A stretch of DNA of 64,000 nucleotides, from positions 100,383-164,382 of the IMG/VR virus record IMGVR_UViG_3300045125_000064. One strand, written 5' to 3'. This DNA is from a virus. Under the pieces are notes generated by a model. That model was not told the origin of the DNA. It saw only the letters and a program-made list of their open reading frames with translations, and ran no database searches. Of the stretch, positions 42,682-43,005 are shown one piece after another (within the stretch, counting starts at the first letter, position 1; every line of letters begins with the position of its first letter). Made by a program: the position numbers and the translations under genes.

Positions 42682-43005
42682 GATGGTTGAGAGAAATAAC
42701 CCTTTTGTTTAATGTGCTTATCATGATGTGGGAGTAAAGTTGATAAGTGCTTGATAGAGGAACCGCTAGAAATGGTTGCAGAGGCAATTAAACGCTTGAT
42801 ATGCCCCATCATACAGTGCTTCTATCATAAGAAAAAGGTGCCCAACAAATGATAACAGGGTAGTGAAACCCTTAAAAGTTAGATTGAAGCTTAAATAGCT
42901 TCAGCTTCACATCTGTCTAGAGCAGAAGAAGAATGGCAAGTGCAAATCCGTTCTATTTGTTATCATCCAAACCAAAAGCTGGTAAATGATCCAACTATTG
43001 GTTTT
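42682..43005 (+). ncRNA. Unidentified multi-helix ncRNA directly downstream of a promoter
   Basis: Helices 42716-23/42741-48, 42752-60/42819-27, 42849-57/42958-66, 42885-91/42897-903 and 42930-36/42948-54; possible pseudoknot. Confidence 0.5.

What the first reader, a model, noticed from the sequence alone, without database searches (positions are those of the whole stretch)
42682..43005. Promoter-driven multi-helix RNA of about 320 nt with a possible pseudoknot
It begins immediately after the consensus promoter at 42647, and no credible ORF follows until 43163. Helices: gcttatca/tgataagt; tgatagagg/cttctatca enclosing aacc/ggtt and ggca/tgcc; atgataaca 42849-57 / tgttatcat 42958-66 enclosing agggt-agtgaa-accct, tgaagct/agcttca and agaatgg-caagtgcaaat-ccgttct. 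The loop tgatgtggg (42724-32) is complementary to ccccatca (42804-11), a potential pseudoknot. The diagnostic motifs of RNase P, tmRNA and group I introns were not found.
Basis: partly seen in the sequence, partly recalled or inferred. Interest (0 to 1): 0.68.

Follow-up and report, generated by a model that had tools for sequence, protein, structure and literature searches.

The report
Phage leader RNA before tRNA-like gene
This 320-base stretch is most likely an untranslated leader, found only in this phage, that a strong early promoter transcribes ahead of a conserved tRNA-like gene; the proposed folded RNA with a pseudoknot is no better supported than chance allows.

Summary
The promoter is real. 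It is one of at least three near-identical 29-nt early promoters, and no credible ORF lies between it and 43163.

The structure does not stand out from this AT-rich genome:
- Helix counts match the genome average.
- 19% of random 330-nt windows contain a closed domain as stable, relative to its own shuffles, as the best one here.
- There is no Rfam match.

No homologue turned up in phage, IMG/VR, metagenome or genome collections. This phage is nearly an orphan.

The search did find something else. The element right after the stretch (43010-43097) belongs to a conserved, unannotated family derived from tRNA-Ile(UAU). The family lacks a D arm and has four members with strong covariation. In the two informative relatives this element sits directly behind a tRNA or its own promoter, with no 320-nt RNA in front.

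I therefore read 42682-43009 as a lineage-specific 5' leader, probably released by RNase P and locally folded, with no shown function. A discrete functional RNA is not excluded (about 0.2). The scan has noted leader RNAs before phage tRNAs on other DNA, but none resembles this sequence.

The parts
42647..42675 (+). Early sigma70-type promoter with a palindromic 17-nt spacer. The expected start is near 42681-42683.
   Evidence: It scores 11/12 with a TG extension. Near-exact copies lie at 40785 and 46126, with 0 expected by chance. The genome holds 7 family members, and 4 of them (including this one) share a similar initial transcribed sequence.
42682..43009 (+). Inferred 328-nt untranslated leader. 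The 5' end is set by the promoter. The 3' end is set by the predicted RNase P site in front of the tRNA-like gene.
   Evidence: There is no open frame under any stop reassignment, no protein family match, no Rfam match and no homologue. Both ends are inferred, not mapped.
42701..42838 (+). Predicted outer domain. Helix CCUUUU.UUUA / UAAG.AAAAGG encloses hairpin 42716-42748 and the closed 42752-42827 domain.
   Evidence: Present in the span-limited minimum-energy fold. The outer helix has P 0.45, hairpin 1 has P 0.94 and the 42752/42827 helix has P 0.91. The domain 42752-42828 alone scores z -1.8.
42849..42966 (+). Predicted closed 118-nt domain: a 9-bp closing helix and four hairpins. The last hairpin has a loop containing UGCAAAU, which is the T-loop sequence of this phage's tRNA-Glu.
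   Evidence: It scores z -3.78 with 0/200 shuffles as stable, and -3.47. This is not unusual after boundary selection: 19% of random windows do as well. Neither the tRNA model nor relaxed ARAGORN calls it a tRNA.
42969..43009 (+). AU-rich interrupted hairpin followed by UUUUUAUU. It could be a weak terminator or attenuator, or a protective 3' hairpin of the leader.
   Evidence: -10.4 kcal/mol, z -3.47, P 0.80. The terminator scan does not call it on the + strand.
43010..43097 (+). Conserved tRNA-Ile(UAU)-derived RNA gene with no D arm. It has an 8-bp acceptor stem, a 4-bp T stem, and an anticodon arm extended by helix 43020-25/43054-59. It fixes the 3' limit of the leader.
   Evidence: Relatives were found by pattern scans. 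There are four members. All 21 pairs are kept in all four sequences, 9 pairs changed on both sides, and 0/500 shuffles did as well. The covariance model scores 106-117 bits. Rfam does not find it.
43163..43363 (+). First credible ORF of the transcript: 66 aa, cysteine-rich, with GAGGAA 8 nt before the ATG.
   Evidence: Homologues at 70-75% identity exist in L002 and P0002. In both relatives ORFs, not this RNA, precede it.

Best explanation
The stretch is the untranslated 5' leader of an early transcript.

Transcription starts near 42682 from a promoter of a repeated early family. This is shown by sequence. The transcript runs through about 328 nt that cannot code for protein, also shown. It then enters a conserved tRNA-Ile(UAU)-derived RNA gene at 43010-43097, shown by covariation in four phages. 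After that come small ORFs from 43163.

The tRNA-like element offers the 12-bp acceptor/T stack that RNase P measures. Host RNase P should therefore cut between 43009 and 43010 and release the leader as a by-product whose 3' end carries an AU-rich hairpin. This step is inferred.

The leader folds locally into separately closed hairpin domains, as any 330 nt of this AT-rich genome does. It is specific to this lineage. Measured against relative L024, everything between tRNA-Arg(UCU) and the tRNA-like gene (41382-43009) is an insertion into a variable tRNA region; it holds an HNH endonuclease gene, tRNA-Ser, four tRNA-like elements, the promoter and this leader. I infer that the leader has no sequence-specific function in trans. 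At most it spaces or stabilises the transcript.
For: - The promoter family is real.
- There is no ORF, no recoding solution and no protein family match.
- The downstream element is a genuine conserved RNA. All 21 pairs are kept, 9 show two-sided changes, and 0/500 shuffles match this. It occurs once per record.
- In L024 that element lies 9 nt after tRNA-Arg(UCU). In L026 it lies 7 nt after a TTGATC-17-TATAAT promoter. The gene therefore needs no long leader.
- BLAST finds no counterpart of 42190-43010 in those records.
- Homologues of the 66-aa ORF are not preceded by this RNA either.
- The structure is not above background.
- P40785 of the same family is followed by a ribosome-binding site and ATG about 30 nt downstream. 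The long leader here is therefore a local peculiarity, not a design feature of the promoter family.
Against: - 328 nt of non-functional transcribed sequence behind the best promoter match in the region is unusual for a phage.
- Several helices have high pairing probability (0.75-0.95), and the 118-nt domain beat all 200 of its own shuffles.
- Only two hairpins in the whole genome have a 4-bp stem and a GNNAGAAAU loop. Both lie in this RNA, at 42685 and 42761. However, the motif was defined after seeing it, and both hairpins have P <= 0.07.
- The lack of homologues says little, because this phage has almost no relatives in any collection searched.
- Transcription and processing were not observed.
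Confidence: 0.5

Rival explanations
1. A discrete, functional structured RNA of about 328 nt and a new kind. It would be made by the promoter plus RNase P cleavage or the 42969-43009 hairpin. Its closed domains would act as binding sites or decoys, for instance for the phage Ro60/TROVE protein, a host nuclease or RNA polymerase.
For: - A strong promoter and no ORF.
- High pairing probabilities for most helices.
- Domain 42849-42966 scores z -3.8.
- A terminal hairpin with a U tract.
- Two hairpins with the same GNNAGAAAU loop, unique in the genome.
- G-U pairs in three of the helices fit the + strand (read).
- T4 makes stable RNAs of unknown role from its tRNA region (PMC3014915).
Against: - No conservation: relatives that keep the adjacent tRNA-like gene lack it.
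- Stability and helix content equal the genome background.
- The pseudoknot is at chance level.
- No Y-RNA motif is present.
- No Rfam family matches.
Confidence: 0.2
2. A continuation of the upstream array of tRNA-derived modules. On this view, 42752-42828 (77 nt) and 42849-42966 (118 nt, with a layout like a tRNA with a long variable arm) are decayed or remodelled tRNA genes. They would be cut out like the four tRNA-like elements at 42245-42617.
For: - The predicted fold is a string of separately closed units from tRNA-Ser to 43094.
- Both domains close with 9-bp helices, and a hairpin follows directly.
- The last hairpin of the 118-nt domain carries UGCAAAU, the T-loop of the phage tRNA-Glu and of the tRNA-like element at 42395.
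- The TGATAR/YTATCA core recurs in the three closing helices, 6 times in 248 nt against about 0.6 expected from the window-wide density.
Against: - The Rfam tRNA model gives nothing for either domain even at E 10.
- ARAGORN at 80% thresholds calls neither.
- Alignment with the tRNA-like elements and tRNA-Glu shows no homology beyond the 7-mer.
- The UGCAAAU sits in an 11-nt loop that cannot form a 5-bp T arm.
- There is no 7-nt anticodon loop.
Confidence: 0.15
3. A cis-acting regulatory leader. The 42969-43009 hairpin with its U tract would act as an attenuator whose read-through is controlled by the upstream structure or by a factor. That would time expression of the tRNA-like gene and the ORFs. 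Alternatively, it could be a put-like element that modifies RNA polymerase.
For: - It lies right after an early promoter and before genes that have no other good promoter. The only other candidate is a 9/12 match at 42906.
- The hairpin has P 0.80 and a U tract.
Against: - The hairpin is weak, interrupted and AU-rich, and the terminator scan does not call it.
- No T-box, riboswitch or other cis-regulatory family matches.
- The alternative pairings are at chance level.
- Relatives express the same gene without such a leader.
Confidence: 0.1
4. Either the region is explained by small ORFs, or it is a DNA-level element such as a protein-binding array of TGATAR inverted repeats.
For: - An 18-codon ATG frame lies at 42934-42990, and a 33-aa TTG frame at 42751-42852.
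- TGATAR is clustered here.
Against: - Neither frame has a Shine-Dalgarno sequence like the GAGG/GGAGG of neighbouring genes.
- No family matches.
- The inverted TGATAR pairs are spaced 17, 64 and 104 nt apart, unlike operators.
- Perfect inverted repeats are not enriched.
Confidence: 0.05

Closest known systems
5' leaders and spacers of phage tRNA-cluster transcripts, released by RNase P (T4 tRNA region; its RNAC and RNAD small RNAs)
   Same: It is encoded inside a phage tRNA region. It is driven by an early promoter. It is noncoding and lies next to tRNA or tRNA-like genes whose processing would set its ends. Its function is unknown, as for T4 RNAC and RNAD (PMC3014915).
   Different: It has no sequence similarity to any phage in the INPHARED collection. 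At about 328 nt it is longer than the T4 RNAs as I recall them (about 120-140 nt; from memory, not checked). Processing has not been shown.
Bacterial and phage Y RNAs of the YrlA type, partners of Ro60/TROVE (PMC4201824)
   Same: The same phage encodes a TROVE protein at 52096-53609 on the same strand. The RNA lies among tRNA-like elements.
   Different: The GNCGAAN0-1G motif is absent from 42682-43009. There is no T or D arm. The distance to the TROVE gene is 9 kb, against the paper's limit of 4 kb. It is about three times the length I recall for YrlA (from memory, not checked). The neighbouring candidate at 43009-43132 also fails: its motif reads GCCCAAUG in two relatives, and its acceptor pairs with the upstream strand.
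HK022 putL/putR and other promoter-proximal phage leader RNAs, including leaders before phage tRNA-Arg noted elsewhere in this scan
   Same: It sits directly after a repeated, operator-like early promoter and ahead of tRNA-type genes.
   Different: No sequence or family match. No conservation. The other scan findings concern GC-rich, widely conserved enterobacterial elements. An effect on RNA polymerase was not tested.
GOLLD and ROOL large phage-associated RNAs
   Same: These are large noncoding RNAs that, as I recall, are often found near tRNA genes in phages (from memory, not checked).
   Different: There is no Rfam match at gathering score in the window, or at E up to 10 within 42300-43400. 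The stretch is much smaller, and its structure is not conserved.

Membership tests
Any curated RNA family (Rfam 15) | Score at or above the family's gathering threshold | tested here: not met
   The only matches in the window are seven tRNAs, none in 42682-43005. At E up to 10, only sub-threshold noise falls inside the stretch, such as nos_TCE at 15.9 bits and sno_ZL63 at 15.7 bits.
tRNA / tRNA-like module (for domains 42752-42828 and 42849-42966) | A cloverleaf with a 7-nt anticodon loop and a 5-bp T arm carrying the T-loop consensus, recognised by tRNA models | tested here: not met
   The Rfam tRNA model gives no hit at E <= 10. ARAGORN makes no call at default or at 80% thresholds. Only the overall layout and a UGCAAAU 7-mer resemble a tRNA.
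YrlA-type Y RNA | GNCGAAN0-1G motif near the 5' end | tested here: not met
   Neither the motif nor any CGAA occurs in 42682-43009.
YrlA-type Y RNA | Encoded within 4 kb of the Ro60/TROVE gene on the same strand (PMC4201824) | tested here: not met
   The TROVE ORFs start at 52096. That is 9.1 kb downstream, although on the same strand.
YrlA-type Y RNA | Bound by the Ro60 protein | not testable with these tools
   This needs co-immunoprecipitation or a gel-shift assay.
tmRNA (one-piece or permuted) | A tRNA-like domain formed by the ends, plus a tag reading frame ending in a hydrophobic degradation signal | tested here: not met
   ARAGORN at default settings finds none. The permuted call at 80% threshold uses the promoter -35 region as its '5' tRNA domain', and its tag ends in KPKAGK.
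Stable RNAs of phage tRNA clusters (T4 RNAC/RNAD type) | Encoded in the tRNA gene region and co-transcribed with tRNAs | tested here: inconclusive
   The location is met: tRNAs lie at 42102 and 43807, with tRNA-like genes on both sides. Transcription and stability could not be tested. The phage collection gives no sequence match.
Intrinsic terminator / attenuator (42969-43009) | A GC-rich stem followed by a U tract | tested here: inconclusive
   A U tract is present and the stem scores -10.4 kcal/mol, but it is AU-rich with two internal mismatches. The consensus scan does not call it on the + strand.

The most novel reading that the evidence does not exclude
The 328 nt are released as a stable, stand-alone modular RNA of a new kind, found only in this orphan phage lineage. 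Its closed domains would serve as a scaffold or decoy, for instance for the phage's own Ro60/TROVE protein or for host RNases or tRNA-targeting defence nucleases. It would work together with the surrounding tRNA mimics.
Probability: 0.12. Interest if true: 0.6.

Novelty: new member of a known kind. Interest (0 to 1): 0.25.

Why it matters
The stretch itself matters little. It is best read as a transcribed spacer in a fast-changing phage tRNA region. It also shows that attractive helices in AT-rich phage DNA can be matched by the rest of the genome.

Following it up did have value:
- It fixed the transcript's layout.
- It uncovered next door a conserved family derived from tRNA-Ile(UAU) that lacks a D arm and that standard tRNA finders and Rfam miss. 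This family may be how these phages read AUA codons. It also argues against the Y-RNA reading of that neighbour.

If the leader did prove to be a stable RNA bound by the phage Ro60 protein, it would be a new kind of Ro partner.

Tried and rejected
Searches for homologues that found nothing useful:
- blastn of 42600-43200 and of 39000-46100 against 50,697 phage records gave nothing, or only tRNA and HNH fragments.
- Exact IMG/VR scans for the T arm plus acceptor strand and for the promoter spacer gave 0 hits each.
- The promoter spacer in metagenome contigs gave 6 chance hits with no related context.
- A 19-mer from the 42930-42954 hairpin in 185,579 genomes gave 11 chance hits. One is a 30-nt, 93% match in a Bacteroidota MAG, in what looks like an unrelated hairpin.
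- Neighbouring proteins as anchors:
  - The 66-aa ORF has two relatives, and neither has the RNA upstream.
  - The 79-aa ORF found no relative.
  - The 446-aa ORF found no relative.
  - The TROVE ORF found no relative.
- BLAST of 42190-43010 against the full records of five related or tRNA-Ile-bearing contigs, and of 42240-43110 against G001, gave only chance hits.
- There are no internal paralogues in the 172,865-bp record.
- The scan's own index holds no look-alike stretch in other genomes.

Sequencing runs: none was listed for 42600-43200 and no RNA holder was listed, so expression could not be examined.

Ideas rejected:
- A permuted tmRNA; the relaxed ARAGORN call is spurious.
- A recoded ORF.
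- Partial copies of the promoter or of its initial transcribed sequence inside the RNA. Local alignment scores of 15-17 equal the shuffle mean of 16.1.
- Enrichment of inverted repeats.
- Homology between the domains and the upstream tRNA-like elements.

Full report
SETTING. The window is bases 100383-164382 of a 172,865-bp IMG/VR virus record estimated at 76% complete. The phage is AT-rich (34% G+C). Nearly all of its genes lie on the + strand. It encodes DNA polymerase III alpha, NAMPT, a NUDIX protein, adenylosuccinate synthetase and a TROVE (Ro60-like) protein. The finding lies in a tRNA region with eight ARAGORN calls between 39021 and 46007.

IS THE OBSERVATION THERE? Yes, as sequence.
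- TTGACA-17-TAGAAT, with TG before the -10, lies at 42647-42675. The same 29-mer recurs at 40785 (1 mismatch) and 46126 (2 mismatches), with none expected by chance. Seven + strand copies with up to 6 mismatches exist in the record, and four of them (P3894, P40674, P40785 and this one) share a similar initial transcribed sequence. The promoter is therefore almost certainly functional, with a start near 42682.
- All six frames of 42676-43165 hold several TAA, TAG and TGA codons, so no genetic code opens them.
- The short ORFs in or over the stretch have no significant PHROG match.
- The first gene with a good ribosome-binding site starts at 43163.
Most have high ensemble pairing probability, 0.66-0.95. 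The exception is aacc/ggtt at 0.07.
- A span-limited fold shows the region as beads on a string, not one globule. The beads are an outer domain 42701-42838 (holding hairpin 1 and the 42752-42827 domain), a 118-nt domain 42849-42966, a hairpin 42969-43004 followed by UUUUUAUU, and then a closed 86-nt element.

IS IT MORE THAN CHANCE? No, by every test I could run.
- The 324 nt fold with z -1.64, and the opposite strand does better.
- Sliding 120-nt windows inside the stretch are unremarkable against the neighbourhood.
- Helices of 8 and 9 bp or more are as frequent as elsewhere in this genome.
- The 118-nt domain beats all 200 of its own shuffles. But I applied the same 'pick the best closed domain' procedure to 70 random 330-nt windows of the genome, and 19% gave z <= -3.5.
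- The proposed pseudoknot is matched by 24% of shuffled loops against the whole RNA and by 10% against the target segment. It also shares two C residues with the ggca/tgcc helix.
- One oddity remains. The only two hairpins in the genome with a 4-bp stem and a GNNAGAAAU loop both lie here, at 42685 and 42761. I defined that motif after seeing it, and both hairpins have low pairing probability.
- TGATAR/YTATCA is clustered in the three closing helices, six times in 248 nt. I have no explanation for this.

RELATIVES. The lineage is nearly an orphan.
- Nothing in 50,697 phage records matches.
- The neighbouring 66-aa protein has only two relatives among 5.8 billion proteins, and in both an ORF, not this RNA, precedes the gene.
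- Other anchor proteins found nothing.
- Scans for the promoter spacer and for a 19-mer of the RNA gave only chance hits.
- No sequencing run was listed.

THE NEIGHBOUR SETTLES THE LAYOUT.
A degenerate scan with it found L024. A second scan with the conserved core found L026 and L028.
- Together with window 43010-43097 they form a family with an 8-bp acceptor stem, a 4-bp T stem and no D arm. A helix (43020-25 with 43054-59) closes around the anticodon arm.
- All 21 pairs are kept in all four sequences. Nine pairs changed on both sides, and 0 of 500 shuffles did as well.
- The anticodon stem-loop GGGGU-CUUAUAA-GCCUU is identical to that of canonical phage tRNA-Ile(UAU) genes in L027, L029 and L030. 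Three of the four members end in A-CCA.
- Rfam and default ARAGORN miss the family. A covariance model finds one copy per record.
- In L024 the element lies 9 nt after tRNA-Arg(UCU), and tRNA-Thr follows it at once. In L026 a TTGATC-17-TATAAT promoter ends 7 nt before it. L028 is cut off at the contig end.
- The conserved gene therefore needs no long leader, and no counterpart of 42190-43010 exists in those records.
- Measured against L024, window 41382-43009 is an insertion between tRNA-Arg(UCU) and the tRNA-like gene.

MECHANISM.
- Shown: a strong repeated early promoter; 328 nt with no coding capacity; a conserved tRNA-shaped gene that begins at 43010; and ORFs from 43163 with no other good promoter before them.
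- Inferred from established knowledge of RNase P, which measures the coaxial acceptor/T stack of about 12 bp: cleavage between 43009 and 43010 frees the leader, whose 3' hairpin may slow exonucleases.
- Inferred from lack of conservation and from background-level structure: the leader is a lineage-specific spacer left by rearrangement in a variable tRNA region, not a dedicated RNA machine. I give this 0.5.
- Rivals: a functional discrete RNA (0.2), remodelled tRNA-derived modules (0.15), a cis-regulatory or attenuating leader (0.1), and small ORFs or a DNA element (0.05).

COMPARISON WITH KNOWN SYSTEMS.
- It works most like the leaders and spacers of phage tRNA-cluster transcripts. T4 makes RNAC and RNAD from its tRNA region, and their roles are still unknown (PMC3014915).
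- It is not a Y RNA. The GNCGAAN0-1G motif is absent, and the TROVE gene is 9 kb away, against the 4 kb found for YrlA genes (PMC4201824).
- It is not tmRNA, and it is not any Rfam family.
- This scan has noted leader RNAs before phage tRNAs on other DNA. Those are conserved enterobacterial elements, and I did not test for any relationship. A look-up of this stretch in the scan's own index found look-alikes only in this genome.

VERDICT. Interest is low for the stretch itself (0.25). The conserved tRNA-Ile-derived gene without a D arm next door is the more interesting object and deserves its own follow-up.

Noticed in passing
window 43010-43097; L024:7010-7099; L026:1161-1252; L028:12893-12983 (minus strand): A conserved, unannotated RNA family derived from tRNA-Ile(UAU). 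It has an 8-bp acceptor stem, a 4-bp T stem, no D arm, and an anticodon arm extended by a covarying helix. Three of the four members end in A-CCA. All 21 pairs are kept in all four, 9 changed on both sides, and 0/500 shuffles did as well. Rfam and default ARAGORN miss it. ARAGORN finds no canonical tRNA-Ile(UAU) in the window's phage or in L024, so this may be their AUA decoder.
   Followed up: partly
GCCGAAUG reads GCCCAAUG in L026 and L028. The acceptor strand pairs and covaries with the upstream strand. In L024 a tRNA-Thr starts immediately after the CCA, which leaves no room for a downstream closing helix.
   Followed up: partly
window 40785-40813, 42647-42675, 46126-46154, plus 16152, 37164, 40674 and one copy upstream of the window: A family of early promoters that share the palindromic spacer CATATGCAAATATGTGG; four of the seven also share a similar initial transcribed sequence (GGGAAGGTGAG-like). 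All are on the + strand. The pattern suggests a common regulator or recombination cassettes.
   Followed up: partly
window 46155-46260: This stretch is strongly folded directly after the third promoter copy. The 120-nt window at 46120 had the lowest z-score of the 8 kb scanned, -5.9.
   Followed up: no
window 52096-53609: The TROVE/Ro60-like gene is read in two frames that overlap at 52920-52935 (279 aa and 229 aa). This could be a frameshift, an assembly error or a split gene.
   Followed up: no
window 43807-43885: A tRNA ending in CCA for which ARAGORN reports a four-base anticodon, CAAA. It could be a quadruplet or frameshift decoder, or a non-decoding mimic.
   Followed up: no
L024:5680-5735 and L024:6487-6555: Fragments that look like 5' halves of tRNAs lie directly in front of two HNH-endonuclease-like ORFs. 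Each ORF runs up to a complete tRNA gene. This suggests endonuclease insertion with partial duplication of the target tRNA.
   Followed up: no
window 42718-42965: Six TGATAR/YTATCA hexamers lie within 248 nt, forming the cores of three successive closing helices. The window-wide density is about one per 390 nt. I have no explanation for this.
   Followed up: partly
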